Assembly: GCA_030390025.1 (NCBI GenBank)
Contig: CM059431.1
Coordinates: 124,746,001-124,810,000 of the forward strand
Reading direction: 5' to 3'
DNA: 64,000 bases
Source: Squalus acanthias
Taxonomy: Eukaryota
How positions within the stretch are numbered: position 1 is the first letter of the stretch; each line of letters starts with the position of its first letter. The notes below the pieces were generated by a model, which saw only the letters and a list, made by a program, of their open reading frames with translations, did no database searches and was not told the origin of the DNA. Both the position numbers and the translations under genes were made by a program. Shown here piece after piece: positions 1 to 55,719 of the stretch.

Positions 1-991
1 GGCTGAACTCTGCAGGACGAGCAGCATTCTGTGTTTCTCTGGACTCTGTTGACTCTGGACTTTTAGCCGCACTGGACGGTTATTCGAATTGGAACGAGTC
101 GCCCCGACGAAGGCCAGTGACCGGGTGCACCATCCCGAGAGTCGGTAAACGGTGTTTGGACCTGAAGGCCCAACAAGGCGAGACGAAATGACAAGAGAAG
201 AAGAAGAATCCACGTGCCGCCGCGGTCAGTAAACCCCGACCGTGCCCGAAAATATACGACCCATTTCTTGAACTCTACAGGTTACTGCACGAACTGGTCG
301 AAGACTCTTCTTTGAATTCTGCCGGTAACTGGTGTCGGTCCAGGAAGACTTTTCTTTGAGTTCTACATCCGGGCCCGAGCACTGTCGAGTTCTTCATGAC
401 AACGGGGAGCCCAGCCTGCTTGCAGCAGCAGCGAAAGTAAACAAGTGGGGTACAGAGACCCCTCAAAACACGTGACAGTCAGGCGCTGCAGCGAAACGAG
501 CCAAGCGCCTCACCTTAAAATTCTCCGAAGTATCACGAGTGGTGAGCATGTTTCCCGATCCTACAAATCTAGATGTAGTGTAGGTATTGATAGGGGAGGG
601 TGGTTTTATTAAGGATAAAGTATAATGTGTTCCCCTTTTTACGATGTGCCGTGCGTTCTTCATTACCATAGACCAAGCTTTATGAATGTATCTATACTTG
701 TACTGTCGTTAATTTGTGCCTATGACATGTACTTAATGATTTTGGACGCTATGCAATAAAGATTTCCATTTCGTACTATTCAACCGGGTCTATTTGAGTT
801 TCTCTCTGCATTATTGCTCTCGCACCTAAGTCCAGTGTTAGAACCGTAAGGGCGAGTGAGTCGAACCACTCACAGGTGCTTATTGCAACAAGGCTGGCCG
901 GAGACCAGAGCAAGCAATAGTATTAGGCAACGAAGGCCTAACCCCGCACCAGCACCGTCTGCGATACAAGCACGACACACAACCCCTTACA
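1..991 (+). repeat. 5' LTR of element A (partial, R-U5 part)
   Basis: Ends CCCCTTACA followed by GAAAA and the PBS; homologous to the LTRs at 4956, 8500 and 15600; AATAAA at 755. Confidence 0.93.
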
Positions 992-995
992 GAAA

Positions 996-2794
996 ATGGT
1001 GACCACGAAGGGACTCTGGCAGCGAGAGAGTAATATTTCAGACCCTGGTGTGAATAGGCGAAATGTGATGGATGAGAGGGTAGCCGACTATGTGTTTGGG
1101 AAGGTTCACTTAACCAAAAGGTGGATAAGTGACCTACTGATGGATAAGCGTCCGCTAGACATAGCCATCAAATGGACAGGCAGTAAAGAGCATAAGAAGT
1201 CGGTGGAGAAAGCGGTCTGGCTGATGTGCTACAAGAAGCAGGTCCAACTTTCGGACCAGGTCATTGTAGCACAGGCAGCTCAGATCAGGGACTGTGAAGT
1301 TGAGATGGAGGAAAAGGTCACGGGAGGACAGAAACTCATTGCATCCTTGAATGCGTTACATCAGGAACGCCAGATAGTAGCCAACCACCATGAGGCTAAA
1401 ATTGATTACCTAGAGTGCCAGGTCACGGAAGCAAAGTTAAACGAGGGTAGGATTAGAGAACGGTGTGCCCGCCTAGCTAACCAAATAAAAGCCTAGGAAG
1501 AAAGCTTGAAGGGAGTTAGGGCGGCATACAAAATGGCCCTCGAGGATAGGCATGAGGGAGCCGACCACAGTGTTTGTCAGAAGGAGATAGGGAGCCTAAG
1601 AGAGGCCCTGAATAAGGCAAACGGCTTGGTGTGCCTCATCAGCCCGTCAGCAAACCAGCCACAGGTGGGTAGGGAATTCCCAAAATCCCTACCAGACAAA
1701 GCAGAGGAGGTATTTGCCACTGCGCCCTCCGCGCCACCCAGCTATACGGCAACCTGGGTAAGGGAGGAAGTGGTGGAAATAGAGAAGTAGGTTCCCGAGG
1801 TAGGACAATCCCCAGAGGTAGAGTCGAGCCCGGGACCGATGTGTCCGCTCCGAGGTCACAAGAGAGGCCCGAACGCAGCCAATGGGGATGACGGGGATGT
1901 CCTGAACCAGCTGGTATTGCCTCACAGCTCACACCAGCTGAGAGCAATGATTAGCCATGTACGGAAGCTGTCCGAGTCAGACGACCCTTCTGTACACTTC
2001 AGGGAGGTAGAACAGACCGCAGCAATTAATGGCTGCGACGATGAGGAAAAGACCAAAATGTTGCTGTTCTCTTCAGATAGCTCGATCCTTCAGCGTCTCT
2101 CCGACGAGAGCAAGAAGGGGAATAAAACTTATGAGGAGTTACGGGACGAGGTCCTAGAAGTGTTAGGGACGGATGACGAAGGTCCGTTCGTCAGATTGAG
2201 TCAAACCATACAGATGGAGGGAGAACCCCCGAAGGTTTTCGCCGACAGGCTGTGGCCAGTATACCAGCGTAGCTGCCCAGGTGCGCCAGCATGCACCTAT
2301 CCGAACGGTGCCGGTTTAACTCATTGGCTCAGGTGTTTAGTAGCCAACAGTTTGCCAGCCGTCAGGGAACAGGCCAAAGCGTGGTTTGATCCCACTAACC
2401 CCGCCACAACAGAGGAGTCTGTCCTAAATCGACTCACCATAGGGTATCGTAACACTAGGAGCACGGGAGCGCGTCCCCTTAAGGGAAAGGTGCATGAGGC
2501 ACGGCCCGCAGCCCCAGCTCAAAAGGAGTGGCATCAGGAGGGAAACCGCGTCCCACAAGCCAGTGGTGCTTGTTACGGGTGCGGGAAGACAGGACACTGG
2601 CGTAAGAACTGTAGGAACCCCTGGAAGGACCCCAGGGACAAAGCTCCCGCATCCGAACGCAAGCGCCTGTCTCTGAGAAAGGAGCCGGTGTGCCTATCCA
2701 TCCCGATGCGATAGACTCAATGTTAGGAGCCATGCGGTCTCTCATGACCTCACACGGGGAGGTAGCAACAGCCCCATACCACCCAGGCTTCTGA
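996..2794 (+). pseudogene. gag: gag of element A, disrupted (in-frame TAG at 1494 and 1788, 1-nt frameshift near 2650)
   Basis: ORFs 996-1496, 1506-1790 and 1839-2714 share one frame and align to Gag of B; CYGCGKTGHWRKNC zinc knuckle; PSAPPSY motif. Confidence 0.92.
997..1014 (+). promoter_or_regulatory. Primer binding site, tRNA-Arg(TCG)-like
   Basis: TGGTGACCACGAAGGGAC is complementary to the 3' end of a vertebrate tRNA-Arg(TCG) isodecoder (...GTCCCTTCGTGGTCG-CCA, recalled from memory) with one C>T change. Confidence 0.75.
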
Positions 2795-11820: not shown

Positions 11821-12170
11821 CTGAAAATGATCAAAAAAAACATTTCTGACCAACAATCATCCAATACACTACTCGTCACAGGATAAAATCACTCAGACTT
11901 GCAGTAATTAACTGAAATAAAAGTGGTGAAGATATAAAGTTGGTAACATCTCCTTTAGTATTCTCTTATATATTTTCTATTGAATCTGTCCTTTTTCATT
12001 CTGTGTGTTTTCAGAAGCTGATTCACCGGTTTTATCAGTTCAATTATCTTTTCAATAAACTGCCCACATTAATTTTTAAATTACCAATAAAAAATATTTT
12101 TGCTGGCAATTTTTCCTAAATATTTTTTACGGCTTTTTCACTGCTCAATTCATTTTGTCTTGAAATAAAT

Positions 12171-34619: not shown

Positions 34620-35426
34620 GGGAGGAGGCAGCCATTCGATTGGCCTTCTGGAAGGACCGTCCTTGATCGTCTCATCAGACTGCGATTCCAATAAATTAAA
34701 GCGCAAGTCCCTGTTGCTCACCAAATCCCCATCATTCCATCCCTGTCACAGGTCATATCACAGCACAAAGCTGAAATGAAACCAACTACAAAAGAATCCA
34801 AACTGAATTAATAAATTTATCAAAAATCAGTGAACACTTATTTACACCAATAATATTAACTACTCACCCTTGTGCAATCCCTTAGTGCCTCTTGTTACTG
34901 TGCCTTTGCCTACTCTAGTGCTCCTATGAAGTGTTGGCCTGGTGGCTGCAGTACGGCTGGTGGAAGGCTGCTGAGTGTCCGTGTGGGAGACTTCAGATGG
35001 CCTTGCAGGACACCCTCCACCATCTCTGGGCCTGGAAGGCCCGGCTGTAGACTGCACCACCTCAGCATGGGCGGCAGCAGTCTGGACTGGCTGGATGACA
35101 GGCAGCGACAAGGGCAATGGCGGAGTGGCAGTGGTGGGAGCAGGAATGCTGTCATCCTGAGAGAGGACAGCGGGTTCCTGCTCCAATGACCCAGTGCATC
35201 TCCCCAGGGCAGCACTTCAGCATCCCCAGCAATCTGTTGGAGCACAGATTGCTGGCCAGCTGCGACACTGTGAAAGCCCCAGTCAATGGTGGTAGACTCA
35301 GCCAAGCTGGCAGCAGTCAGAGCTCATGTGGCATCAAGTTGAGATTGCATGAGATCAGTCTGAGATTGGATGCCAACAAGTACTCACCCGTAGGGACATC
35401 GGAAATGCCGGTTTCAGGCATGCACA

Positions 35427-37145
35427 GTGCATGTGCTGGAAACCGGCATTTCCGATTTGTCAAGAAAGCAAGCCACCGTGTCCAAGACCGTCACTGACCT
35501 CATCTCCTCTGGAGATCTTCCCCCCACGGCCGCCAACCTCATAGTTCCCCAACCGCGCACAGCCCGCTTCTACCTCCTTCCCAAGATCCACAAACAGGAC
35601 TGCCCCGGTAGACCCATCGTTTCAGCCTGTTCTTGCCCCACGGAACTTATCTCTTCCTATCTCGACTCTATTTTTTCTCCCCTTGTCCAGTCTCTTCCCA
35701 CCTACATCCGCGACTCTTCCGATGCCCTCCGCCATTTTAACAGTTTCCAGTTTCCCGGCCCCAACCGTCTCCTCTTCACTATGGACGTACAATCCCTCTA
35801 CACCTCCATTCCCCACCAGGATGGCCTGAGGGCGCTCCGCTTCTTCCTTGAACAGAGGCCCAACCAGTCCCCATCCACCACCACCCTCCTCCGCCTGGCT
35901 GAACTTGTTCTCACATTGAACAACTTCTCCTTTGACTCTACCCATTTCCTCCAAATTAAAGGTGTTGCTATGGGTACCCGCATGGGTCCTAGCTATGCCT
36001 GCCTTTTCGTGGGATATGTGGAACACTCTTTGTTCCAGTCCTACTCGGGTCCCCTCCCTCACCTCTTTTTCCGGTACATTGATGACTGTATCGGTGCCGT
36101 CTCCTGCTCTCGCCCTGAACTAGAACATTTCATTCACTATGCTTCCAATTTCCACCCTTCCCTCACCTTCACATGGTCCATCTCCGACTCTTCCCTTCCC
36201 TTCCTCGACTTCTCCATCTCCATCTCTGGGGATAGGTTATTGACTAACATTCACTACAAGCCCACTGACTCCCACAGCTACCTGGACTACACTTCCTCCC
36301 ACCCCGCCTCCTGTAAGGACTCTATTCCATTCTCCCAGTTTCTCCGTCTCCGCCGCATCTGCTCTGATGATGCCACCTTCCATACCAGTGCTTCCGACAT
36401 GTCTTCCTTTTTCCTCAACCGAGGATTCCCCTCTACCGTGGTCGACACGGCCCTCGACCGTGTCCGTTCTATCTCCCGCACTTCTGCCCTCACCCCTGCC
36501 CCTCCCTCCCGGAACCACGATAGGGTTCCCCTTGTCCTCACCTTTCACCCCACCAGCCTCCACATTCAACGGATCATCCTCCGCCATTTCCGCCACCTCC
36601 AGCGTGATCCCACCACCAAACACATCTTCCCCTCACCTCCCCTTTCAGCATTCCGCAGGGACCGCTCCCTCCGCGACACCCTAGTCCACTCCTCTACCAC
36701 CCCCAGCACCCCTTCCCCTTCGCCCGGCACCTTCCCGTGCACGCGCAGGAGATGCAACACCTGCCCTTATACCTCCCCTCTTCCCACTGTCCAGGGCCCC
36801 AAACACCCCTTCCAGGTGAAACAGCGATTTACTTGTACTTCCTGCAATTTAGTATACTGTATTCGCTGCTCACGATGTGGTCTCCTCTACATTGGGGAGA
36901 CCAAACGCAGATTGGGTGACCGCTTTGCGGAACACCTCCGTTCAGTCCGTAAGGGGGACCCCGAGCTCCCGGTGGCCTGTCACTTTAATTCACCGCTTCA
37001 CTCCCACTCTGACCTCACCGTCCTCGGCCTATTACACTGTTCCACGGAAGCGCAGCGTAAGCTCGAGGAACAGCACCTCATCTTTCGTTTAGGCACGCTA
37101 CAGCCCTCTGGACTCAATATCGAGTTCAACAATTTTAGATCATAA
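35427..37145 (+). CDS. Penelope-like element ORF (RT + GIY-YIG endonuclease), 5'-truncated but uninterrupted
   Basis: FYLLPKIHK, GRPIVS, MDVQSLYT, GVAMGT and FRYIDD RT motifs; NLVYCIRC..CGLLYIGET GIY-YIG domain; true homology starts near 35465. Confidence 0.92.
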   Translation: MHVLETGISDLSRKQATVSKTVTDLISSGDLPPTAANLIVPQPRTARFYLLPKIHKQDCPGRPIVSACSCPTELISSYLDSIFSPLVQSLPTYIRDSSDALRHFNSFQFPGPNRLLFTMDVQSLYTSIPHQDGLRALRFFLEQRPNQSPSTTTLLRLAELVLTLNNFSFDSTHFLQIKGVAMGTRMGPSYACLFVGYVEHSLFQSYSGPLPHLFFRYIDDCIGAVSCSRPELEHFIHYASNFHPSLTFTWSISDSSLPFLDFSISISGDRLLTNIHYKPTDSHSYLDYTSSHPASCKDSIPFSQFLRLRRICSDDATFHTSASDMSSFFLNRGFPSTVVDTALDRVRSISRTSALTPAPPSRNHDRVPLVLTFHPTSLHIQRIILRHFRHLQRDPTTKHIFPSPPLSAFRRDRSLRDTLVHSSTTPSTPSPSPGTFPCTRRRCNTCPYTSPLPTVQGPKHPFQVKQRFTCTSCNLVYCIRCSRCGLLYIGETKRRLGDRFAEHLRSVRKGDPELPVACHFNSPLHSHSDLTVLGLLHCSTEAQRKLEEQHLIFRLGTLQPSGLNIEFNNFRS

Positions 37146-43039: not shown

Positions 43040-44689
43040 TGTAGAATTCGCAATTATCGCGATTTCATTTTAATAAGGAGAAAACACAAGTTTCGTTCAA
43101 AACAGCTTTTATTTCAGCGGAATGCTGTCAGGTTTAAATTGGACACAAGCAGCCTGTAAAATGGCCGCCGCACCGCGTGACAGAACATTCGAGACTTTTC
43201 GGCAGGCAGACAAGATGGCGTTCCAATAAACATTTTTGCAGGATCGATAACGATTCAGCACAGTGAAGACAATACACAGGACATTATGGGTTTACAGTAT
43301 AAACATCGATACTGGAATCGGTCTCCCAGGTACAAAGGAAAGCCATCAAGGGCCCATCCAAAGGACATTAATATGTAAACTCCCAACGGCTCTACGATGA
43401 GAGAACCGTTAGCAGGTAGTTATACAGGACACTTGGAAGCCCCAAACCCCTCCAGGGGGAACACCGACCGATTTGACAATGGGAGAAATATTAACAGGTA
43501 CTCAAACATTCAGGAGTAGCCCCGAAACCCATTAAGGACAGAGATCACCCATACAGGACATTTTTGGGCGCCAAACCTTAAACAAAAGAATGGACATTGT
43601 AGTTGGGCGGGAAACGGAAGAACTGTGCACTATAATTGCAGGCCCAAACCGTCCATTCGCTCTCTTGACTCTTGCCTCGTGTTCGTGACTCTTGCTCTTT
43701 TGCTCTTGACTCTTGCCGCTTGCTGCTGTTATCATCGTGGCTGCTCCTGTGTTTTATCCGGTCGATTCGTAACCTCGTGGCTGCTCCTGGGTAAAAGACT
43801 GTTGCAAAGACCTATGTTGGTAGCTGGCAGCGGAACCGAAGGCCCGGGATGAGACGAGATGAGATGAGATGAGATGAGAGGAGAAGAGAAGAAGACCTTA
43901 TCCATCGCCACGGTCAGTAAATCCCGACCGCGCCTGTAGGTCGATCAGCCAAGTCTTCTCGACAGGAAGTTTTCTTCTTTAACAAGACATATTGCATCGA
44001 TGATAACTGGACTGTGCAAACACATCGTATCAGCGATATTGACAACGGTGCTCCACCATACCCTGTATCCAACCAACAGAGGTCTTCACTACAGCGGACG
44101 GTCCAGCCGACTGACCGAGCAGCAGAAGCAGTAAACAAGTGGGACCAGGAGATCTCCTGACCAACACGTGGGTGCTGCGGTGAAAAACATCCGATCAGCT
44201 ATTCGGGATTTCTCCGAGTTATTACGAGTGGTGAGCATGAGTCTCGGGATCCTACGAAGCTAGTTTTAGGATAGTTATTGATAGGGGAGGGTTTAAAGTT
44301 TAAGGATATTTGTAATGTGTGCCCTATTTACGTTGTGCTGGTCGTTCCTCGTTTCCCTAAGAGTGATTATAACTGTTTGTAAGATTGTACTGTCATTAAT
44401 CTGTGCATATGACATGTATTTCATAATTTTAAGTATCATGCAATAAAGATTTTCCATTTCGTACCGTTCAAACCAAGTCTACATGAGTTTTATCTCCATT
44501 ACTGCTCTCGCATCTAAGTCCAGTGTCTAGAACCGTAAGGGAGAGTGATTCGAACCACTCACAGGGGTGTCTAGTGTTCCCAGACTGGCTGGAGACCAGG
44601 CCTAGACCCGCACTGACATACAGGCTGCACAGAGCCGCGTGAACCTCACAGGCCACGAGACACGCAGGGTCAGGAGAGTATCCCTTACA
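43040..44689 (+). repeat. 5' LTR of element B
   Basis: TGTA...TACA termini; TATAAT at 43631; AATAAA at 44442. Confidence 0.97.
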
Positions 44690-44693
44690 GAAA

Positions 44694-46505
44694 ATGGCGA
44701 CCGCGGCAGGACACTGGCAGCGAGAGGGTAGTGTGTTAGATTTTGGAATGACTGTACGAAATGTGATGCAGGAAAAGATAGCGGATTACGTATTTGGAAA
44801 GGTTAATCTAACGAAAAAGTGGATAAGCGAACTGTTAGCGGATAAGAGCCCCCTAGAGGCAGCTGAAAGGTGGACGGATAGTAAGGAGCATAAAAAGGCA
44901 GTTGAGAAAGCAGTCTGGCTTATGTGCTACAAAAGGCAGGTTCAGATTTCAAACCAGACCAATACAGCGCTAACCGCTCGAATCAAGCAGTTAGAGGAGG
45001 AAATGGAGGAGAAGGTTTCTGGAGGGGAGGCGCTCATTAAGAGTTTAAATGAGTTACGCCAGGAAAGCCAGGAAGTCTCCAGTTACCTTAAAACAAGGGT
45101 AGAGTATCTCGAGTGCCAGATCACTGAAGCAAAATTAAACGAGAGTAGGATGAAGGAAAGATGTAACCGTCAAGCTGCCCAGATAAGAACTCAAGAAGAG
45201 AGCTTAATGGGGGTTAGGTCGGCGTATAAGTTGGCCCTTGAGGATAAGTTTCAGGGAGCCGACCATAGCGCCTGCGAAAAAGAGATAGAGAGCCTCAAAA
45301 AGGCCGTGAATAATGCGAACGGCATGGTGTGCCTTATTAATCCGTCGGCACGCCAGCCGCTAGTAAATGAGAGATTTAGAAATTCCCCACCAAGTAAAGC
45401 AGAAGAGGTAGTAGCCACTGCGCCCTCCGCGCCACCCAGCTATTCAGAAACCTGGGTTAGGGAGGAAGCAACGGAAGAAACAAAAGAGCCCGTTGAAAAG
45501 GAGGTAGAAAAGGGATCGTTGTATCCAGTAACGGGGATTAAAAGGGGCCCAAGCAGAAACGGTGGGGAAGAACCGGGGGATCTCCTCGGACAGCTGGTGT
45601 TGCCTCACAGTTCACATCAGCTGAGGGCTATGATAAACCACGTAAGGAAGCTGACCGAGATAGACGACCCTTCCGTACATTTTAGGGAAGTTGAGCAAGC
45701 CGCAGCCATCAACGGCTGCGATGATGGGGAGACAGCAAAAATGCTGCTGTTCTCTTTAGATAGCTCGGTCCTTCAGTGTCTCTCAGGCGATAGCAAGAGG
45801 GGTAATAAAAGTTATGAGGAATTGAAAAATGAGGTCCTAGAAGTAGTGGGAGCGAACGACGGAGGTCCGTTTGCTAGAGTGGGACAGACAGTGCAGATGG
45901 AGGGAGAACCCCCGAAGGTTTTTGCCGACAGGCTGTGGCCAGTATATGAGCGCAGCTGTCTAGGTGCGCCCGAGCGCGAAGATGTGGAAGGCGCCGCTTT
46001 AATTCATTGGCTTAGGTGCATAATAGCCAACAGTTTACCAGCCGTTAGAGAGCAGGCAAAAGCCTGGTTCGATCCCAATGACCTCAACCTTACGGAAGAG
46101 TCGGTCTTGAATCGACTCACGTTAGGTTACCGTAACATAAGGGGTATGGCAACACGTCCCTTTAAGGGAAGAGTACATGAGGTACGACCCGCAGCCCCGG
46201 CTCAAAGAGAGTGGCATCAGGAGGGTAATCGCGCCCCACAGGCAAGTAATGCCTGTTACGGGTGTGGGAAGACAGGGCACTGGCGCAAGCACTGCAGGAA
46301 CCCTTGGAAGGATTCCAAGGATAAAAATCCCGCGGTCCGAGCCCAGGCGCCTGTCCCGGCTAAGGAAGCAAAGGCACCCACCTCTCCCGAAGACCTCGAG
46401 GCAGTGTTAGGAGTCATGCGCAAGATGGTTTTGAATGCGCGTGGACAGGTGGCGGTCGCAACCGGCCCCGTAGGTGCCGCAGGACCGTCTAATAGTGCCC
46501 CATGA
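44694..46505 (+). CDS. gag: Gag (603 aa): coiled coil, PSAPPSY late domains, capsid-like region, single CCHC knuckle
   Basis: Position directly after the LTR; CYGCGKTGHWRKHC; open ORF. Confidence 0.95.
   Translation: MATAAGHWQREGSVLDFGMTVRNVMQEKIADYVFGKVNLTKKWISELLADKSPLEAAERWTDSKEHKKAVEKAVWLMCYKRQVQISNQTNTALTARIKQLEEEMEEKVSGGEALIKSLNELRQESQEVSSYLKTRVEYLECQITEAKLNESRMKERCNRQAAQIRTQEESLMGVRSAYKLALEDKFQGADHSACEKEIESLKKAVNNANGMVCLINPSARQPLVNERFRNSPPSKAEEVVATAPSAPPSYSETWVREEATEETKEPVEKEVEKGSLYPVTGIKRGPSRNGGEEPGDLLGQLVLPHSSHQLRAMINHVRKLTEIDDPSVHFREVEQAAAINGCDDGETAKMLLFSLDSSVLQCLSGDSKRGNKSYEELKNEVLEVVGANDGGPFARVGQTVQMEGEPPKVFADRLWPVYERSCLGAPEREDVEGAALIHWLRCIIANSLPAVREQAKAWFDPNDLNLTEESVLNRLTLGYRNIRGMATRPFKGRVHEVRPAAPAQREWHQEGNRAPQASNACYGCGKTGHWRKHCRNPWKDSKDKNPAVRAQAPVPAKEAKAPTSPEDLEAVLGVMRKMVLNARGQVAVATGPVGAAGPSNSAP
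44695..44712 (+). promoter_or_regulatory. Primer binding site, tRNA-Arg(TCG)
   Basis: TGGCGACCGCGGCAGGAC is the 18-nt complement of ...GTCCTGCCGCGGTCG-CCA (vertebrate tRNA-Arg-TCG, recalled from memory). Confidence 0.82.
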
Positions 46506-49500
46506 CTAGAACCAGCACAGCCCGTCTACCTGTGTCCGCTCAGCTATGATGCGTGGAGGCGACCTGTGGTGGAGATGGAGGTAGAGAAACAAAAGGGCAG
46601 TTATTTGTTGGACACGGGAGCTTCTTGCACCATAATCCATACAGATGACCCTTTTGACTCGCCGCTATCTACCAAGGTCCCATTCACGCTAGCAGGGTTC
46701 ACAGGGAAAGAACAGGCTGGCACGTTTTCCCTCCCGCTATCCATTCGTTTAGGGACACTTCGCCTTAAGTGGAAGTGTATACTGATGGCATGGCAAAAGG
46801 GGGGTGGAAGAGGTATTCTCGGGTCCGATCTGCTAGCGGGACACGGGATCCTCGTGGACCTCAGAAATCACTGTCTCTGGGGGGCTAAAGGGGAAAAAGG
46901 CGAGGTAATGGTAATTCAAGGGGAGGAAGAAACAGGGGTCCTGTGTACCGTACAGCCATCCGGAGGCTACGACCTCAGGCTTATGGTCGCAGATGTCCCA
47001 ACGGACATGCAAACGTACGTGACAGATAATATGCACGCGTTTGCAACCCACAAGCACGATTGTGGGAGGGTGGTCGGGTTTGAGGTCAGCGTAGATGGGG
47101 ACCCCATGACCCGACCCCAAAAGCAGTATAACTTCCCCAAAGAAGCAGAACCCGATATGGAGGCAGCAATGTCTTCCTTGGTGCAGCAGGGCGTGTTGAG
47201 GCCGATAGCCACACACGTGAACTCCCCATTATGGCCGGTTAGGAAGCCGGATAATTCGTGGAGAGCCACGGTGGACTACAGAGTCCTTAACAGTAACATC
47301 CCCGCCTGCGCGCCCACAGTAGCAGCAGTTGCTGACCTAATAGGGAGCATCCCAGCGTCCGCGACCACGTTCACGGTGCTGGATATCTCGAACGGTTTTT
47401 GGTCCATCCCGCTGCGGCGAGAGGACCAGTACAAGTTTGCCTTTACGTTTAAAGGGCAACAGTACACGTGGAACTGCTTGCCACAAGGTTTCCACAATAG
47501 CCCCAGTATTTTTCACCAGTGTATGGCAGGAAGTTTAAAGGAGTTTAGTCAGCCCAATCAGATAGTACAGTATGTGGATGATTTGCTCCTATTTACGGAC
47601 TCAAGGGAGGAGCACGGACCACTGCTGGACGAGTTATTGGAGCTGTTAGCGAGAAAGGGTTTTAAAGTAAACCCAAAGAAAGCACGTATCGGTCAGCAGG
47701 AAGTAAAATTCCTGGGACTGACCCTACGCGCTGGGGAAAGAGCCATAGACAAAGCAAGGAGGGAGTCGGTACAAGAATTACCGATTCCCAACAACGTAAG
47801 GGGTGTGAGGTCCTTCTTGGGACTGACCGGTTACTGCAGGGATTTTATCGAGGATTATGCGGCCACAGCGGCGCCGCTCCTCCGACTCCTCCATAAGGGA
47901 GTAGAGTGGCTTTGGGACGAGGGCTGCCAAGCAGCCTTCGAGAAGTTAAAAAGGGATCTGCAGACCGCGCCAGCCTTAGGGGCCATAGATGGGGGGAAGG
48001 AGTTTTTCCTGGAGGTAGCTGCCAGCGGAGACAGCTTAAGCGCCGTGCTGCTCCAAGAGCGTCACGGCAAGCTGAGGCCGGTTGTCTATTCATCCAGGGT
48101 ATTAACGGATGTGGAGAGAAGTTTTTCCAATTGCGAAAGGCACCTTTTAGCCACGCATTGGGCTGTGAAAAGATCAGCGATCTTCACAGGGCTCTCTCCC
48201 ATCACTCTCCTCACACATCACACACCAACTAAGATGCTTCTGGATGGGAGGATTAAAGACGGGACCGTAAGCAGCGCACGCATTGCGCGTTGGACCCTTC
48301 TTCTCTCCCAGTTGGACATCAGAGTAAAAGGTCTTTGCGAGCCCAGGCTTGCGGCCAATTTGGTATACCCCGGTACAGCCCACCGGTGTTCGGTGGAGGG
48401 GGTGTGGGAGGTCAACATAGGTTTACGGGCCGGGATACATCCCACTGGGCGCGAGATTTATGTTGATGGGTCTAGCACAGTATCTGCTGGCGAGCGACTC
48501 ACAGGGTGTGGAGTTTATGACCCTGCGGCAGACCTTGCCCTGGCGATCAAGCTCCCTAGCACCATGAGCGCGCAGCAGGCTGAGCTGTCTGCCGTGGTGT
48601 ACGTGGTAACCCACCCAGACATTTTCCCAACCCCATACACGATTTGCTCGGACAGTATGTTCACCTGCAATTCGTGTACGGAATACCTGGCCATTTGGTC
48701 CCGCCGTGGATACACCTCCGCGGACGGGCGACCTTTAACGGTAAAGCCCTTGCTGGAGAAGATCTTAGCAGCAGCAGTAGGGGAGGAAGGGGAGATTTTC
48801 ATCCATAAAGTGAAAGCTCACTCCTCCACAGAGCCCCGTGGGGAGGGCAACCGGCAGGCGGATGCGCTAGCCAGGGAGGGTGCCCGCGACGGTACTTTCT
48901 GGAACCCCTATAGAACCGGACCCATAGCAGCGGTCCGAGGTGGGGACGGGAATACCGGGAACACCAGGGTAGCATTGCCCCTAGACCTTAAGACCGTCCA
49001 AGCCCAGGATCCCGCCCTAAAAGCAGTCCTAAAAACGATTGCTGAGGGGAGGCAGGTAGAAGGTCCGTACAGTACGGCAACCCTCTCAGTTAAGGAAGGC
49101 ATGCTGTTCCGCGAGGAGCAGTGGGTTGTGCCGCAGCAGCACAGGAGGGAATTCCTCCAGTTGGCTCACGAGGGACCAGGGGCAGGGCACCCCGGGCCCG
49201 AGGTTACCTGGCAACGGGTAGAGCAAGCGGGATGGTGGCCAGGGCTCAGGGAACAAGTCCGCGAGTTCTGTGCAAACTGTCTTGTGTGCGCTGCAAACAA
49301 CCCAGACCCCCAGAAAAGGAAGGTGCCCATGGGACACGTAAGAAGGGTAGAGGGACCATGGCAGTCGATACAGATCGACTATATAGGACCCCTGCCCACC
49401 ACCCAGGGAGGTTATAAGTACTGCCTCGTCCTGGTGGATGTGTTTTCCAAGTGGGTGGAAGCCTTCCCTTGTCGAACAGCTACGGCACTGGGTACAGCAA

Positions 49501-51008
49501 AAATCTTGGTCCGGGAAGTGTTCTCGCGGTGGGGACTCCCCCGTTTCGTGGAGTCAGACCAAGGGAGTCATTTCACCGGCCAGGTGATGCAGAACACCCT
49601 CATGCTTTTGGGCATTGAAGGGAAGTGGCACGTAGCACACAATCCCCAGTCATCCGGGATTGTTGAACGTATGAACCGGACCCTGAAGGAGAAATTGAGG
49701 AAAGAGACTAGGAACTCGCCCCAAAAATGGGCGGAAGTTCTGCCTTTAGTCCTCATGGGGGTCCGGGCCAGTCAGTCAAAAAGTACGGGGTACTCCCCGC
49801 ACGAGGTAATGACCGGCAGGCTCATGCGAACCCCCACCCATGTGCTAGCCCCGGTGCTCACTGAGGGTCAGCTTCAAGAGATCAGCAGGGACAAGTTCGC
49901 CCAAACTCTCTTGGAGCGCCTGAAGCAAGTTTATGAGCAGGCGGCTGGGAACATGGGAAGGCAGCACCAGGGCAATCGCTTGTTGCTGGAACCCCGCAAA
50001 ACGCGGGAGTGGGAAGTAGGAGACCAGGTCATGGTCAGAAACTACGCCAGAGTAGGGAGTCTGGAACCACTGTATATGGGACCCTACAACATTGTAGACA
50101 AGGCGAGTCCCATGGTTTACGCCGTAAAAGTACCTCGGCGCACTAAGTGGTTCCACATAAACCAATGTAAACTGTACCAGCCGGGTGCGCAAGGGAAAAC
50201 TACAGGGGTAAATCCCGCCAATGGGAAAACACAGCCCCAGGTAGGACCACAAGGCACACAGGCAGGCGTAGCAGCTTGCATCAGGGGAAGGGACATCCCG
50301 GACGATCATGCAGCGTTTTTCTGGAGTTGGGGGTTAGATGACGAGGACCCCAGGGTACCCTGGTCAGATGAGGATAGTGCAGATGAGCATAGTGATGATG
50401 ACGGGTGGTTTCAGAGGAACGGTCTGGAAGGATTGGGGCCGCTAGGTAGAGATCCATACGGGGTGGACACACAAGCTGCAGGTCCCGACAGCAGGAGGAA
50501 GGAGCTAGAGGAGGCCGGGCCAGCCGCTATGTGGTTCCCAGAGGTGTGGCCGCCCGCTTTGAACGTCCAGTCCTCAGGGGAGGCAGAGTTCGCGAGTGAA
50601 GGGCCGCCTGCTGGGCCGAGCAGGGCGGGGCCCCGAACTGCCAGCCCCGAGGTTAGGGAGGCGGAGTCAGCGGAGGCGGGGCTGGCGCCTGTGATGGAAC
50701 CCCAGGTCATCCCGTTGAAGGTCTCGGGACCCGGTCCGTCCGTCACGGAGCCCCCGCCCATAGCAATTCCCCGTAGGTCAAGCAGAGTACCCCAGCCCAG
50801 GAAGACGTGGTCAGGTCCACAGGCTGCCCCAGGGCGTAAGTTTCAGGTTAAGATAACCCGGGTAGAGACAGGCCACATCGAGGCAGTAACAGGCTGCGGC
50901 AGATCAGAGGAAAGGGTCAGCGCAGCAACAGGCTGCGGCAGATCAGAGGGAAGGGTCAGTGCCCTCCCACCGTCGGGAAGAGCTCGCAGCAGCCTTCTCA
51001 GGATTTAA
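46506..51008 (+). CDS. pol: Pol (PR-RT-tether RH-RNase H-IN-long tail), in frame with gag after TGA
   Basis: LLDTGA; LPQGFHNSP; YVDD (47571); IYVDGS/SAQQAEL/SDS/KVKAH/GNRQAD; HHCC; QIDY...ESDQG...SSGIVERMNR. Confidence 0.97.
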   Translation, partial: LEPAQPVYLCPLSYDAWRRPVVEMEVEKQKGSYLLDTGASCTIIHTDDPFDSPLSTKVPFTLAGFTGKEQAGTFSLPLSIRLGTLRLKWKCILMAWQKGGGRGILGSDLLAGHGILVDLRNHCLWGAKGEKGEVMVIQGEEETGVLCTVQPSGGYDLRLMVADVPTDMQTYVTDNMHAFATHKHDCGRVVGFEVSVDGDPMTRPQKQYNFPKEAEPDMEAAMSSLVQQGVLRPIATHVNSPLWPVRKPDNSWRATVDYRVLNSNIPACAPTVAAVADLIGSIPASATTFTVLDISNGFWSIPLRREDQYKFAFTFKGQQYTWNCLPQGFHNSPSIFHQCMAGSLKEFSQPNQIVQYVDDLLLFTDSREEHGPLLDELLELLARKGFKVNPKKARIGQQEVKFLGLTLRAGERAIDKARRESVQELPIPNNVRGVRSFLGLTGYCRDFIEDYAATAAPLLRLLHKGVEWLWDEGCQAAFEKLKRDLQTAPALGAIDGGKEFFLEVAASGDSLSAVLLQERHGKLRPVVYSSRVLTDVERSFSNCERHLLATHWAVKRSAIFTGLSPITLLTHHTPTKMLLDGRIKDGTVSSARIARWTLLLSQLDIRVKGLCEPRLAANLVYPGTAHRCSVEGVWEVNIGLRAGIHPTGREIYVDGSSTVSAGERLTGCGVYDPAADLALAIKLPSTMSAQQAELSAVVYVVTHPDIFPTPYTICSDSMFTCNSCTEYLAIWSRRGYTSADGRPLTVKPLLEKILAAAVGEEGEIFIHKVKAHSSTEPRGEGNRQADALAREGARDGTFWNPYRTGPIAAVRGGDGNTGNTRVALPLDLKTVQAQDPALKAVLKTIAEGRQVEGPYSTATLSVKEGMLFREEQWVVPQQHRREFLQLAHEGPGAGHPGPEVTWQRVEQAGWWPGLREQVREFCANCLVCAANNPDPQKRKVPMGHVRRVEGPWQSIQIDYIGPLPTTQGGYKYCLVLVDVFSKWVEAFPCRTATALGTAKILVREVFSRWGLPRFVESDQGSHFTGQVMQNTLMLLGIEGKWHVAHNPQSSGIVERMNRTLKEKLRKETRNSPQKWAEVLPLVLMGVRASQSKSTGYSPHEVMTGRLMRTPTHVLAPVLTEGQLQEISRDKFAQTLLERLKQVYEQAAGNMGRQHQGNRLLLEPRKTREWEVGDQVMVRNYARVGSLEPLYMGPYNIVDKASPMVYAVKVPRRTKWFHINQCKLYQPGAQGKTTGVNPANGKTQPQVGPQGTQAGVAACIRGRDIPDDHAAFFWSWGLDDEDPRVPWSDEDSADEHSDDDGWFQRNGLEGLGPLGRDPYGVDTQAAGPDSRRKELEEAGPAAMWFPEVWPPALNVQSSGEAEFASEGPPAGPSRAGPRTASPEVREAESAEAGLAPVMEPQVIPLKVSGPGPSVTEPPPIAIPRRSSRVPQPRKTWSGPQAAPGRKFQVKITRVETGHIEAVTGCGRSEERVSAATGCGRSEGRVSALPPSGRARSSLLRI

Positions 51009-51291
51009 AGGGGCCGCCCTGAGAACGGGCGGCATTGTAAAGTTATTAGTTTAAGGTTTTAAGTTTTAGTTTAAAGTTTTAAGTAGTTTTAATAAGTTTA
51101 AGTTTGTAGTGTTTTTAACAGATAACGACAAATGATGGGAGTTTTAAGGCTAGGTTTAGAGGAAGTCTATTTAGCAAACGTTGAAGTTTACGTGAGGCGA
51201 GGTCAGGGGACCCGCTCACCCTTCACAAAAGCCAGAGACTTTTTGCGAGGCTGGCTACCTCATTCTATCTGATCACAGGAACCAAGGAAGG

Positions 51292-53643
51292 ATGGAACGA
51301 CTTCTAGTTTTGCTCGTGGCAATCGGATGTGGATTGGCCTATCGGGGCCTCACCAAGGATGTCGTGGTGTTTGGATGTTCCGGGGACACGGCCCCCATCG
51401 CGGTGGATGGGACCGGGAGACGGAAGGCAGAAGGGACCAGCACCTATTTCCACAAGGGAAGGTGGCCAGGATGGCTGGGAACGAACTCAACGGAGTATTC
51501 CAGCACATCGGGGTTCGCCTACAAAGAGACTTCTTTAATGTGCCCCAAAGTACGGATCATCGCACCCAGGATCAGCGTCACCGTCGGCAAACGGATTTGT
51601 TTGACCTGCAGTGGGAATGTCCCATTGAGCCGATGGTGGTGGCTGCGAAAGCTGAGCAAAACTATGAGGAACTCTTCGGTTGAGTGGGAGCGACTGGGTA
51701 ATAATACCCATCGGACAATTACGGGGACAGATGGACAAGTGAAAGTCTGTTGGGACAAATGGTGGGAACCAGATGAGGGGATTTATGTTTGTATGTGGGG
51801 GTCAAAGTACGTTTGCCCCAAAGGCATCTCCATATTCTTTATTAACCAGTGGCAGGATAACGGACAGGGGATGAGGTGGGATGCGAGCACCAGGGGGTGC
51901 GGAGCCCCATACTCTCCGATCCCAGTAAATGCCACTGAGCTCATTACGCGCCCACGCAAAGCCCCGCCCACGATTCCGGTGGTTCTAACTGAGGAAGAAG
52001 GGTGCCCTAAAACTAGTAAGGGACCCGGGAACGGTTTGGTACTGGTCCCCACAGACCAGATACTATTTCAGGGAGTGCATTACGCGGTGGCCTCGGTGAT
52101 TTTAAATCTCACTGAGGTACGGTTACCAGAGTGGTGCCCCAAAAAGACGGAACAGTTGTACCAGGTCCTGTTGACCAAGATGTTCAGGCAATTTTACGAG
52201 TTTGATTTTGCAGAAATTGATAAGACAAGTTTGTACACCGCACCGCAGGAAGTTTTGGACCAAGTAGGGAGGCAAAGAAGGGGTTTGGTGAACGATGCGT
52301 TCACTGCTTTTAACACAGGGACATCTGTGGTCAACGCTCTAGACAGTGTGGAGCTGCAGACCCAGATTAATGGTTTAAAAACACAGTTAAAGGATATTCT
52401 TACAGATGAGAATAAAGTGGTAGGGTCGGGTCTGCACGAGGACCAAGCCATGACACTACACTTAAAAGAGATTATAGCAGAGCTGGAGAAACATGCGCGT
52501 ACGGTAAATGCCCTGATTAGGGAAGATCGGAATGCATCCGATCAAGCTGCGCAGAACGAGGTGTGCGTGCTTTACGGGGCGTGGTTACTGGGCGAGGGCC
52601 GCAGTAATTTGGAGGATTTAAAACAAGGTTTGGTCCCGTCCTGGATAAGTAACAAACACCTGCGGGCGCTCCACCCTTTTCAGAATGCATTAAGTCCGTG
52701 CCAGCTCAGGCTAGCTTCAGAAGCTTACCCAGTCCCCGTGGACTGCGGACGTTCAAACCATACTATTATGGGAATAGTATTACGCATGCCGGTTTTGGGC
52801 AACACAGCAAAGCCCGCCCCGGTGTATCGGGTAGAGAACATTGGTGTCATTCAGGGGGGAGCCCACATTCGTTATGCAGCGGTTCCACCTTACGTCATCC
52901 GCTGGGAGCAAACGATGACAGGTACAGATCTCTCTGGTTGTCGTGGCAGGGGAGCACACATAATACTGTGCCCCCAGCACTTGAATGCCTTTTTAACACC
53001 ACAGTGCGGGTTCAGAACGGCTGGCGCCAAGTCCATGAATTGCACCATGGAGGCAATGGCCCAAGATCATGTGCCTCCGCAGGTAGCATACATCGGGGGT
53101 GGAACATATTGTGTTACCACTGCAGCGCAACACTACCAGCATGGAAACCGTAGCCGGTGTCCGGTGAGTGACAGCAGTTTCTGTTTTAAACCCAGGGCTG
53201 AAGTTCAAGTAGCACAACAGCGAATTATCCCAATCCCTGAACCATCCACTGTTCATCTCACAGTAAAAGAGAATTTTACCGACTTGCAGCGATTTGTCGC
53301 ACATTTTGGGTACCTCATTCCCCCTCTCCCCGAGCATTTAACCAAACTTCTGAAAGCCGTCGCGGTGTCACAAAAGCATTTCTATACATTAGAACAGAAA
53401 ACCGTCGAGATAGGTACAGACATTTTGGACATAGTGGTTCCACCGTGGTGGAATCTGTTCACGAATATTGAAGTGCCCTCATGGGTCAGAATAGCCTCCC
53501 ACATTTTAGTCGTCTGTCAAGTGTTTATTGTAGTATACCTTTTGTTCATACATTGTAAAAGAGACAAGCGCCTCACCAAGCATGAGAACACGGGAGAGTG
53601 GCGAGAACGTTACGTGCGCGTGCACGATGAGAGCGCAGTGTAA
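51292..53643 (+). CDS. env: Env (783 aa): signal peptide, Ig-like domain, furin site RQRR, fusion peptide, heptad repeat, Cys-rich region, TM, YxxPhi tail
   Basis: Hydrophobic N-terminus; RQRR|GLVNDAFTAF at 52270; C-terminal TM IASHILVVCQVFIVVYLLFI; splice acceptor ATCACAG at 51278. Confidence 0.93.
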   Translation: MERLLVLLVAIGCGLAYRGLTKDVVVFGCSGDTAPIAVDGTGRRKAEGTSTYFHKGRWPGWLGTNSTEYSSTSGFAYKETSLMCPKVRIIAPRISVTVGKRICLTCSGNVPLSRWWWLRKLSKTMRNSSVEWERLGNNTHRTITGTDGQVKVCWDKWWEPDEGIYVCMWGSKYVCPKGISIFFINQWQDNGQGMRWDASTRGCGAPYSPIPVNATELITRPRKAPPTIPVVLTEEEGCPKTSKGPGNGLVLVPTDQILFQGVHYAVASVILNLTEVRLPEWCPKKTEQLYQVLLTKMFRQFYEFDFAEIDKTSLYTAPQEVLDQVGRQRRGLVNDAFTAFNTGTSVVNALDSVELQTQINGLKTQLKDILTDENKVVGSGLHEDQAMTLHLKEIIAELEKHARTVNALIREDRNASDQAAQNEVCVLYGAWLLGEGRSNLEDLKQGLVPSWISNKHLRALHPFQNALSPCQLRLASEAYPVPVDCGRSNHTIMGIVLRMPVLGNTAKPAPVYRVENIGVIQGGAHIRYAAVPPYVIRWEQTMTGTDLSGCRGRGAHIILCPQHLNAFLTPQCGFRTAGAKSMNCTMEAMAQDHVPPQVAYIGGGTYCVTTAAQHYQHGNRSRCPVSDSSFCFKPRAEVQVAQQRIIPIPEPSTVHLTVKENFTDLQRFVAHFGYLIPPLPEHLTKLLKAVAVSQKHFYTLEQKTVEIGTDILDIVVPPWWNLFTNIEVPSWVRIASHILVVCQVFIVVYLLFIHCKRDKRLTKHENTGEWRERYVRVHDESAV

Positions 53644-54028
53644 TGGGAAAATGGCGTCACTCCCGCTCGCCACGTGCGCCGCGGAAGTTTGTACCCATTG
53701 TAAATACGTTGGAAACTCGACATGTTTAAGAGTCGGGATTTGTTTATTTTGGTGATGGTGTTGATTGTTTGGTTTTTGGGTTTTGTTTTTCCTTCCCTTG
53801 AATAAAAGACAAATATACAGGTGATGCGTGAGGTATCGGCCTGGTTACGCCGGGAAGGAAAACAAGTGGTGTAAGTTTAAGGGCAAATGATGCCTACGGT
53901 GATATAAAATGTGATTTTTTCTTGGGAAATGAGGACGACACAGAGACCCTAGTGAAGTTAAAATTTTATGGGATTAATTTACTGGATTCGGAGTGAAATC
54001 GAGATAAGATTGCTCACCACTGAGATTT

Positions 54029-54069
54029 TTGATACGATAAGCGGAGTTATTCGCATCAACAGGAGGGAC
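54029..54069 (+). promoter_or_regulatory. Conserved hairpin and short polypurine tract before the 3' LTR
   Basis: TTGATACGATAAGCGGAGTTATTCGCATCAACAGGAGGGAC is identical in A (8459-8499) and B. Confidence 0.8.
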
Positions 54070-55719
54070 TGTAGAATTCGCAATTATCGCGATTTCATTT
54101 TAATAAGGAGAAAACACAAGTTTCGTTCAAAACAGCTTTTATTTCAGCGGAATGCTGTCAGGTTTAAATTGGACACAAGCAGCCTGTAAAATGGCCGCCG
54201 CACCGCGTGACAGAACATTCGAGACTTTTCGGCAGGCAGACAAGATGGCGTTCCAATAAACATTTTTGCAGGATCGATAACGATTCAGCACAGTGAAGAC
54301 AATACACAGGACATTATGGGTTTACAGTATAAACATCGATACTGGAATCGGTCTCCCAGGTACAAAGGAAAGCCATCAAGGGCCCATCCAAAGGACATTA
54401 ATATGTAAACTCCCAACGGCTCTACGATGAGAGAGCCGTTAGCAGGTAGTTATACAGGACACTTGGAAGCCCCAAACCCCTCCAGGGGGAACACCGACCG
54501 ATTTGACAATGGGAGAAATATTAACAGGTACTCAAACATTCAGGAGTAGCCCCGAAACCCATTAAGGACAGAGATCACCCATACAGGACATTTTTGGGCG
54601 CCAAACCTTAAACAAAAGAATGGACATTGTAGTTGGGCGGGAAACGGAAGAACTGTGCACTATAATTGCAGGCCCAAACCGTCCATTCGCTCTCTTGACT
54701 CTTGCCTCGTGTTCGTGACTCTTGCTCTTTTGCTCTTGACTCTTGCCGCTTGCTGCTGTTATCATCGTGGCTGCTCCTGTGTTTTATCCGGTCGATTCGT
54801 AACCTCGTGGCTGCTCCTGGGTAAAAGACTGTTGCAAAGACCTATGTTGGTAGCTGGCAGCGGAACCGAAGGCCCGGGATGAGACGAGATGAGATGAGAT
54901 GAGATGAGAGGAGAAGAGAAGAAGACCTTATCCATCGCCACGGTCAGTAAATCCCGACCGCGCCTGTAGGTCGATCAGCCAAGTCTTCTCGACAGGAAGT
55001 TTTCTTCTTTAACAAGACATATTGCATCGATGATAACTGGACTGTGCAAACACATCGTATCAGCGATATTGACAACGGTGCTCCACCATACCCTGTATCC
55101 AACCAACAGAGGTCTTCACTACAGCGGACGGTCCAGCCGACTGACCGAGCAGCAGAAGCAGTAAACAAGTGGGACCAGGAGATCTCCTGACCAACACGTG
55201 GGTGCTGCGGTGAAAAACATCCGATCAGCTATTCGGGATTTCTCCGAGTTATTACGAGTGGTGAGCATGAGTCTCGGGATCCTACGAAGCTAGTTTTAGG
55301 ATAGTTATTGATAGGGGAGGGTTTAAAGTTTAAGGATATTTGTAATGTGTGCCCTATTTACGTTGTGCTGGTCGTTCCTCGTTTCCCTAAGAGTGATTAT
55401 AACTGTTTGTAAGATTGTACTGTCATTAATCTGTGCATATGACATGTATTTCATAATTTTAAGTATCATGCAATAAAGATTTTCCATTTCGTACCGTTCA
55501 AACCAAGTCTACATGAGTTTTATCTCCATTACTGCTCTCGCATCTAAGTCCAGTGTCTAGAACCGTAAGGGAGAGTGATTCGAACCACTCACAGGGGTGT
55601 CTAGTGTTCCCAGACTGGCTGGAGACCAGGCCTAGACCCGCACTGACATACAGGCTGCACAGAGCCGCGTGAACCTCACAGGCCACGAGACACGCAGGGT
55701 CAGGAGAGTATCCCTTACA
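54070..55719 (+). repeat. 3' LTR of element B
   Basis: Matches the 5' LTR except A43405/G54435 by eye. Confidence 0.97.

What the first reader, a model, noticed from the sequence alone, without database searches (positions are those of the whole stretch)
44683..44712. Gag start codon overlaps the primer binding site, leaving no post-PBS leader
Seen in both elements: LTR end CTTACA-GAAA-ATGG, where the TGG of the PBS supplies the TG of the gag ATG and the PBS encodes MATAAG (B) or MVTTKG (A). Established: retroviruses normally have a psi-containing leader between PBS and gag. Inference: tRNA annealing and gag initiation are mutually exclusive (a translation/packaging switch), and psi must lie in R-U5 or gag. 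The terminal CCCTTACA+G also forms a possible 3' splice acceptor that exists only at the 5' LTR, 3 nt before the ATG.
Basis: partly seen in the sequence, partly recalled or inferred. Interest (0 to 1): 0.75.

Follow-up and report, generated by a model that had tools for sequence, protein, structure and literature searches.

The report
Retroviral start codon inside primer site
In a young endogenous retrovirus of a probably shark- or skate-type genome, an ATG in frame with the capsid (gag) gene overlaps the site where the primer tRNA binds, and the next 53 bases are predicted to pair with the terminal repeat, so they likely do the job of the usual untranslated leader while likely also being translated.

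Summary
Observation confirmed. In intact provirus B, ATG 44694-96 overlaps an 18-nt tRNA-Arg-type PBS (44695-44712), in frame with gag; element A is the same. In 8 of 10 close Gag relatives that reach this region (skate, catshark, unnamed; down to 34% identity) the protein carries the PBS-coded start and a second Met exactly at codon 25. 'No leader' is only half right: the 53 nt after the PBS show suppressed synonymous change (pS 0.28 vs 0.73) and are predicted, in A and B, to pair with U5 in a long duplex that begins 8 nt after AAUAAA and ends 2 nt before Met25; it can form only at the 5' LTR. The LTR-end acceptor is unsupported; the tRNA/ribosome switch is untested; Met1 versus Met25 is unresolved. 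Nearest labelled-by-features relative: a snakehead-retrovirus-like record with a 234-nt leader. The scan noted this overlap before at element A of this window, and similar layouts in retrotransposons of other genomes.

The parts
43040..44689 (+). 5' LTR of element B (1650 nt, TG...CA)
   Evidence: 99.94% identical to 54070-55719, TSD TTGA
43631..43660 (+). Candidate TATA box (TATAA 43631) and initiator-like TCCAT near 43656; would make R about 810 nt (inferred)
   Evidence: TATAA and GTCCAT invariant in 4 of 4 LTRs aligned; start site not measured
44226..44236 (+). Splice donor G|GTGAGC inside the LTR, upstream of the poly(A) signal
   Evidence: GT-AG joint to 51279 in 1 contig of run X1; GGTGAGC invariant in 4 of 4 LTRs
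44438..44447 (+). AATAAA poly(A) signal (44442-44447), overlapped by a 2-codon ORF ATG CAA TAA (44438-44446)
   Evidence: Only AATAAA in the 3' half of the LTR; ATGCAATAAA invariant in 4 of 4 LTRs
44455..44528 (+). 5' arm of the predicted long-range duplex (R/U5 border and U5)
   Evidence: Six helices at pairing probability 0.85-0.99 in three folding windows
44535..44688 (+). Predicted U5 domain closed by helix 44535-44542 : 44681-44688 at the LTR end
   Evidence: p 0.98 in B; same helix 846-852: 984-990 p 0.97 in A
44690..44694 (+).
   Evidence: Sequence
44694..44696 (+). AUG1, first in-frame gag ATG (context A at -3, G at +4)
44695..44712 (+). 18-nt primer binding site, tRNA-Arg type (UCG likely); codes residues 1-7
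   Evidence: A's PBS matches the zebrafish 3' tRF-Arg(TCG) at 17 of 18; tRNA genes ending like B's PBS: 4 Arg, 1 undetermined, 3 uncalled of 8 loci
44709..44763 (+). 3' arm of the predicted duplex = gag codons 6-24 (post-PBS segment)
   Evidence: 45 of 53 post-PBS nt paired to U5 in B, 41 of 53 in A; pS 0.28 vs 0.73
44766..44768 (+). Met25 ATG, 2 nt past the base of the duplex; candidate second or main start
   Evidence: Met at this column in 10 of 10 close relatives that reach it
44694..46505 (+). gag, 603 aa from AUG1, ends TGA-CTAG in frame with pol
46506..51008 (+). pro-pol with tether plus second RNase H and integrase
   Evidence: Pfam
51279..53643 (+). env exon: acceptor at 51278|51279, ATG 51292, 783 aa
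54070..55719 (+). 3' LTR; its U5 has no pairing partner downstream
767..1070 (+). Same unit in decayed element A: duplex 767-833 : 1011-1065, LTR end 991, ATG 996, PBS 997-1014, Met25 at 1068

Best explanation
The ATG that overlaps the primer binding site is in frame with gag and is likely a real but not the only start, and the 53 bases after the site are predicted to pair with U5 and so likely serve as a compressed leader that is also read as a flexible 24-residue Gag extension ahead of a second likely start at Met25. Shown: the overlap, the frame, the recurrence of both methionines in relatives, the low synonymous divergence. Predicted: the U5 duplex. Inferred: the duplex forms only at the 5' end of unspliced RNA, where it would present the PBS in a loop, mark the genomic RNA for packaging (as U5-gag pairings do in MPMV and FIV) and cover the region just after AAUAAA, lowering poly(A) use at the 5' LTR. 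The real untranslated leader lies upstream, in a long R-U5 that also holds the env splice donor. A ribosome on AUG1 and an annealed tRNA cannot share the site, but nothing here shows this is used as a regulated switch.
For: AUG1 kept: 8 of 10 close Gag relatives that reach Met25 carry MAT[AT][ATK]G followed by exactly 18 residues and Met25 (P0004, P0006, P0008 skate; P0028, P0030 catshark; P0005, P0009, P0175 unnamed), although residues 7-24 are only 11-17% identical between B and the catshark-type group. Strong context at AUG1. RNA constraint: codons 7-24 have pS 0.28 vs 0.73 in codons 26-160 (Fisher p 0.002 on rounded counts), pN 0.28 vs 0.20 (p 0.23). Duplex: p 0.85-0.99 in B in three windows and 0.69-0.99 in A; energy better than 0 of 923 (B, z -5.2) and 0 of 383 (A, z -4.8) other windows of the same elements match or beat it, and 0 of 500 shuffles each; own arms pair better than crossed arms (-53.2 and -54.3 vs -46.1 and -48.6). 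Bases +13 to +22 after AAUAAA are paired at both 5' LTRs (unpaired probability 0.01 and 0.11) and much less at the four other LTR copies (0.41-0.74). Donor-in-LTR to env joint. Residues 1-22 are below pLDDT 50 in a 200-residue model. Distant Gags P0048, P0038 and P0047 begin near the Met25 column.
Against: No initiation data at all. Relatives were seen only as predicted proteins, which favours copies with an open frame; 2 of 10 start elsewhere (P0007 at Met25; P0026 at a different Met 14 residues before it). pN/pS of 1.0 in codons 7-24 gives no sign of selection on the peptide. 13 AUGs lie between the candidate cap site and AUG1, and AUG1 sits inside the duplex, which a scanning ribosome must open. 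Covariation rests on two sequences: of 29 pairs shared by both folds 24 are identical, 5 change on one side, none on both; 3 both-side changes appear only among pairs predicted in A alone; 8 of 20 pairs predicted only in B are broken in A. The whole 44465-44800 region does not fold better than shuffles (z -1.33; A z -0.25). The env joint is one contig, 25 nt on its short side, in 1 of 3 runs whose RNA nature is the tool's guess.
Confidence: 0.5

Rival explanations
1. Gag starts at Met25 only. The 53 nt after the PBS are a short true leader; ribosomes reach Met25 by jumping or re-initiating across the duplex (shunt, as in foamy virus and plant pararetroviruses) or by internal entry, and AUG1 is skipped like sORF D of prototype foamy virus.
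For: Met25 is in 10 of 10 close relatives and lies 2 nt past the duplex base in both A and B; a conserved 2-codon ORF ends 8 nt before the duplex; substitutions in codons 7-24 follow the pairing rather than the peptide; PFV skips an AUG inside its leader hairpin (PMC2761275 passages); in L010 a long-range pairing predicted at p>0.5 ends 1 nt before the gag AUG.
Against: Does not explain why A-before-TGG, frame, openness and length survive complete turnover of the segment. Known shunts use a cap-proximal short ORF; this one lies about 780 nt and 11 AUGs downstream of the candidate cap site, and its conservation can be explained by the overlapping poly(A) signal. The L010 pairing is not above background (162 of 946 windows as good). 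U5-gag pairings with coding sequence are known, so the duplex does not itself mark the segment as untranslated.
Confidence: 0.3
2. AUG1 is the sole gag start and competition between the initiating ribosome and the primer tRNA (or its 18-nt 3' fragment) is the switch that sorts RNA into translation or packaging.
For: Steric overlap is direct from the sequence; strong context; conservation of AUG1; an 18-nt 3' tRF-Arg(TCG) complementary to this PBS type exists in zebrafish and 3' tRFs repress LTR elements through the PBS (PMC12853362 abstract).
Confidence: 0.14
3. gag is translated from a spliced mRNA that uses the AG at the LTR end (44689-44690) as 3' acceptor, removing most of R-U5.
For: The AG exists only at 5' junctions, in both A and B; a donor upstream exists; splicing would remove 5 or more upstream AUGs and the 5' arm of the duplex.
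Against: Pyrimidine fraction 0.43 (env acceptor 0.71), 6 other AGs within 45 nt, 153 of 434 YAG sites as good; no joint in runs X1, X2, X5 (weak, since the env joint itself showed in only 1 of 3); no AG possible within 12 nt before the ATG in P0009 if its DNA is contiguous.
Confidence: 0.06

Closest known systems
Snakehead-retrovirus-like record L010 (10,688 nt; named from recalled length and layout, not from a label)
   Same: Arg-type PBS right after TTTACA, coiled-coil Gag with one CCHC knuckle (profile match probability 97%), gag-stop-pol in one frame, Pol 32% and RT 38% identical.
   Different: 1-nt spacer G, so no ATG at the PBS; 234-nt post-PBS leader; its internal AUG (nt 180) is out of frame with gag; 83-nt R-U5. 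Env similarity is not significant.
U5-gag long-range interactions of MPMV and FIV (PMC4878616, passages)
   Same: U5 pairs with 5' gag sequence in a structure restricted to unspliced RNA and needed for packaging.
   Different: There the pairings are 7-13 nt and bracket a full leader between PBS and gag; here about 45 nt pair and start directly after the PBS.
Prototype foamy virus leader (PMC5035957 passages; PMC2761275 part 1 and passages)
   Same: Major splice donor inside R; long leader with several short ORFs folded into a hairpin; cis-signals running from R-U5 into 5' gag.
   Different: PFV gag starts at nt 446, downstream of the PBS; Lys primer; no CCHC knuckle; pol not in frame by readthrough; shunt ORFs are cap-proximal.
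XtERV-S, class III ERV of Xenopus (PMC8278194, passages)
   Same: Splice donor in the LTR so env mRNA lacks the PBS; TGA between in-frame gag and pol.
   Different: 158-nt leader, described as short; Ser primer; class I-type env.
Ty1 of yeast (PMC8396678 passages; PBS lying inside GAG is recalled)
   Same: PBS and packaging signals inside the first few hundred nt, overlapping coding sequence.
   Different: Retrotransposon; its AUG lies well upstream, not built from the PBS.
Lokiretroviruses (PMC7947760: text parts 1-2 of 4, supplement passages)
   Same: Dual RNase H, F-like env layout with RxRR site, NYNRIN-like labels on best Pol hits.
   Different: Of 8 Gag or Gag-Pol N-termini seen, none carries M[AV]T; five begin or first reach Met as MS, which cannot come from an ATGG; RT motifs seen in the passages differ from B, which shares them with L010; not reported from cartilaginous fish in the parts read.

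Membership tests
Endogenous retrovirus (Retroviridae-like provirus) | Paired LTRs with TG...CA, target duplication, PBS, PPT | tested here: met
Endogenous retrovirus (Retroviridae-like provirus) | gag-pro-pol-env with tether and second RNase H | tested here: met
Orthoretrovirus 5' layout | Untranslated leader of >100 nt between PBS and first in-frame gag AUG | tested here: not met
   0 nt to AUG1, 53 nt to Met25; L010 234 nt; XtERV-S 158 nt
Orthoretrovirus 5' layout | Major splice donor downstream of the PBS | tested here: not met
   Only GT-AG joint seen starts at 44230, inside the LTR (one contig)
Snakehead-retrovirus-related clade | RT groups with SnRV | tested here: inconclusive
   B and L010 fall in one 100/99 set of 12 rows, unresolved inside; no labelled foamy, ERV-L or loki rows in the tree
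Snakehead-retrovirus-related clade | Arg primer, coiled-coil Gag homologous to SnRV Gag, in-frame gag-pol | tested here: met
Lokiretrovirus | RT inside the loki clade, sister to other retroviruses | not tested
   No loki sequence was held as a stored protein; motif comparison by eye with supplement passages disfavours it
Lokiretrovirus | Env detectably similar to PF00523 fusion protein | tested here: inconclusive
   No PF00523 hit at E<=0.1 and no solved F protein at E<=1 by single-sequence search; layout is F-like by eye
sORF-dependent ribosome shunt (CaMV, RTBV, PFV) | Short ORF ending just before a stable stem, start codon after its base | tested here: met
   ATG CAA TAA ends 8 nt before the duplex; Met25 2 nt after it; structure is predicted
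sORF-dependent ribosome shunt (CaMV, RTBV, PFV) | That ORF is the cap-proximal one | tested here: not met
   11 AUGs precede it from the candidate start site; at least 4 lie between the donor and it
sORF-dependent ribosome shunt (CaMV, RTBV, PFV) | Translation bypasses the stem and depends on the ORF | not testable with these tools
   Needs translation data
U5-gag long-range packaging interaction (MPMV, FIV, HIV-1) | U5 pairs with 5' gag in unspliced RNA only, kept across isolates | tested here: met
   Predicted in A and B, above background; two sequences only
U5-gag long-range packaging interaction (MPMV, FIV, HIV-1) | Pairing is required for packaging | not testable with these tools
   Needs experiment
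3' splice acceptor at LTR end | Polypyrimidine tract, first AG after branch point, junction reads, conservation | tested here: not met

The most novel reading that the evidence does not exclude
A lineage of cartilaginous-fish retroviruses has deleted the post-PBS leader altogether: Gag is initiated on the primer binding site itself, the host tRNA-Arg sequence dictates Gag's first seven residues, the first 24 codons double as the packaging and poly(A)-masking arm, and occupancy of the site by primer tRNA or its 3' fragment directly shuts off Gag initiation.
Probability: 0.25. Interest if true: 0.75.

Novelty: new variant of a known kind. Interest (0 to 1): 0.5.

Why it matters
Retroviral packaging models assume a structured leader between PBS and gag. 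This lineage has at most 53 nt there and possibly none, and appears to fold those bases back on U5. It would be a natural minimal 5' end in which primer site, start codon, packaging mark and poly(A) masking share about 300 nt, in a young, intact, apparently transcribed family where native RNA can be probed. If AUG1 is used, host 3' tRNA fragments would land on the start codon. The parts have precedents (U5-gag pairing, donor in R, coding PBS in Ty1); their combination in an env-bearing retrovirus did not appear in my searches, which cover open-licence papers only.

Tried and rejected
No whole genome is held, so copy-level tests of stops and frameshifts in codons 2-24 could not be run. No DNA of relatives was found in viral or metagenome contigs with Gag alignments (0 confirmed of 61 and of 361 pattern matches). 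Run search: no RNA holder listed on record; raw-read run X15 laid 0 reads, so no start or end sites; contig depths were not used as expression evidence. Two non-GT-AG internal joints (45755-45910, 47459-47566) and two in the LTR repeat tract were set aside as deletions or copy variants. My first classification as lokiretrovirus was dropped. An SnRV-style spliced leader peptide starting at AUG1 was considered: env has its own ATG and signal-like start 13 nt after the acceptor, and no joint leaves the 5' gag region. Rfam: only 2 weak matches far below gathering score in 43040-45000. The L010 structural parallel failed its background test. One paper passage reports that a tRNA database labels the 18-mer of A's PBS type as Trp while RetroTector labels it Arg (PMC4724089); I kept Arg on the zebrafish tRF and ARAGORN calls. 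The single viral-contig tRNA ending like B's PBS had an undetermined CAT-type anticodon, and the metagenome tRNAs are probably microbial, so B's isotype is not confirmed in the host. The supplement of PMC7947760 was read by the tool to page 300 of 318 and only through search passages; I did not locate the PBS of published lokiretroviruses. The original SnRV paper was not in the library; PMC9040795 had no PBS or tRNA passage.
Full report
Setting. The finding lies at the 5' junction of an intact provirus, element B: LTRs 43040-44689 and 54070-55719 with one mismatch, target duplication TTGA, gag 44694-46505, pro-pol 46506-51008 in the same frame, env from 51292. A decayed relative, element A, starts the window. 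Named Gag relatives are from a skate and a catshark, so the host is probably a cartilaginous fish; no genome is held.

Observation. After the LTR end come GAAAA and then the PBS. The last spacer A and the first two PBS bases form ATG 44694-44696, the first ATG of the gag frame, with A at -3 and G at +4. Element A has the same junction. The PBS is 18 nt and Arg-type: A's matches the zebrafish 3' tRF-Arg(TCG) at 17 of 18 (PMC4688932 passage); of 8 metagenome loci ending like B's PBS, 4 are tRNA-Arg, 1 undetermined and 3 uncalled. One paper notes a database that labels A's type as Trp. That A and B use two Arg(UCG) isodecoders rests partly on recall.

Conservation. Of 10 close Gag relatives that reach the Met25 column, 8 carry MAT[AT][ATK]G, then exactly 18 residues, then Met; P0007 starts at Met25 and P0026 at another Met 14 residues before it. 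Identity to B runs from 52% to 34%, and residues 7-24 are 11-17% identical between B and the catshark-type group, against 44-56% for residues 26-43. For one lineage the layout has a chance near 0.03 (1/4 x 1/3 x 0.41). These are predicted proteins, so open frames are favoured and no DNA was seen. More distant Gags begin near the Met25 column. Record L010, whose layout fits snakehead retrovirus, has no ATG at its PBS and a 234-nt leader; none of 8 lokiretrovirus N-termini seen in a supplement carries the motif. The trait is lineage-specific.

The post-PBS segment is an RNA element. Between A and B, codons 7-24 have pS 0.28 and pN 0.28; codons 26-160 have 0.73 and 0.20; the drop in pS is significant (p 0.002), the change in pN is not. 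Folding predicts six helices pairing 44455-44528 with 44709-44763 at probability 0.85-0.99 in three windows up to 1245 nt, and the matching duplex in A. 45 of 53 post-PBS bases pair with U5 in B, 41 of 53 in A. No other window of either element pairs as well (0 of 923; 0 of 383), nor any of 500 shuffles each. Covariation is modest: 29 shared pairs, 5 with one-sided change, none two-sided; 3 two-sided changes among A-only pairs; 8 of 20 B-only pairs broken in A. The region as a whole is not more stable than shuffles. The duplex starts 8 nt after AAUAAA and ends 2 nt before Met25, with AUG1 and the PBS partly open in its upper part. It needs the gag arm, so bases +13 to +22 after the signal are paired at both 5' LTRs (0.01, 0.11 unpaired) and less at four other LTR copies (0.41-0.74).

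RNA evidence. Four runs were laid on 43040-54069; the raw-read run gave 0 reads, three contig runs covered all 30 bins. The only GT-AG joint links 44230 to 51279: a donor invariant in 4 of 4 LTRs and an acceptor 13 nt before the env ATG. It is one contig, 25 nt on the short side, in 1 of 3 runs, and the runs are RNA only by the tool's guess. If real, env mRNA lacks U5, PBS and gag, as in foamy viruses and XtERV-S (passages), and the cap lies upstream of 44231. A conserved TATA and initiator-like pair suggests about 43656, which puts 13 AUGs before AUG1. No joint ends at 44690/44691; that site is a weak acceptor and cannot have an AG in P0009 if contiguous.

Mechanism. Best reading (0.5): two in-frame starts, AUG1 and Met25, around a dual-use 72-nt stretch whose sequence is set by pairing with U5. 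The extension is predicted disordered (residues 1-22 below pLDDT 50), which would let the RNA constraint dominate. The duplex would mark unspliced RNA, as the shorter U5-gag pairings shown to be needed for MPMV packaging do (passages), and mask the 5' poly(A) site; both functions are inferred. Rival (0.3): Met25 alone, reached by shunt or internal entry, AUG1 skipped as PFV skips sORF D; a 2-codon ORF does end 8 nt before the duplex, but it is not cap-proximal and overlaps the poly(A) signal, and the L010 parallel fails its background test. Rival (0.14): AUG1 alone with a tRNA switch; sterically true, untested, and it leaves Met25 unexplained. Rival (0.06): spliced gag mRNA.

Placement. Pol is 32% identical to L010 and Gag matches it by profile (97%); the RT tree puts B with amphibian and coelacanth proteins and L010 in one supported but unresolved set, without labelled outgroups. 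I describe it as snakehead-retrovirus-related and do not file it as a lokiretrovirus.

Literature seen. PMC7947760: parts 1-2 of 4 and supplement passages. PMC2761275: part 1 of 6 and passages. Passages only: PMC8922424, PMC12440569, PMC4724089, PMC4688932, PMC5035957, PMC5210030, PMC3291615, PMC8396678, PMC4878616, PMC8278194. Abstract and outline: PMC12853362. PMC9040795: term search, no hits. SnRV's original description and the position of Ty1's PBS in GAG are recalled. Searches listed no paper whose title or opening describes a retroviral gag AUG overlapping the PBS; I did not open most listings, and subscription journals are missing.

Verdict. New variant of a known kind; interest 0.5.

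Noticed in passing
window 46503-46509: gag ends in TGA followed by CTAG, in frame with pol; UGA-CUAG is a recalled readthrough context, so Gag-Pol is likely made by stop suppression.
   Followed up: no
window 44690-44694 and 54068-54069: The spacer is 5 nt at the U5 end but only 2 nt (AC) between the purine tract and the 3' LTR; such unequal ends would ask integrase to trim differently at the two sides.
   Followed up: no
window 43040-43240: The start of U3 is well kept between A- and B-type LTRs and holds AAAATGGC and CAAGATGGCG motifs that look like YY1 sites (recalled motif).
   Followed up: no
window 44545-44563: Hairpin GAGTG...CACTC inside U5 is invariant in 4 of 4 LTRs and has a TCGA palindrome in its loop, a candidate dimerisation site.
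   Followed up: no
window 43687-43712 with 44216-44243: In the fold from the candidate cap site, the first 60 nt of R pair over the splice donor region (p 0.72-0.99).
   Followed up: no
window 51400-51800: Env has an immunoglobulin-like stretch ahead of an F-like part; weak match to junction adhesion molecule (E 0.99); the scan noted this before.
   Followed up: no
window 4957-17195: Three more A-type LTRs follow element A, with env fragments between two of them and a 30-nt satellite inside the last.
   Followed up: partly
window 35394-37145: ORF with RT and GIY-YIG matches below cut-off, Penelope-like.
   Followed up: no
L001 96-174 and L005 46-124: A phage-contig tRNA with a CAT-type anticodon ends in the same 18 nt as the complement of B's PBS; probably coincidence.
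   Followed up: no
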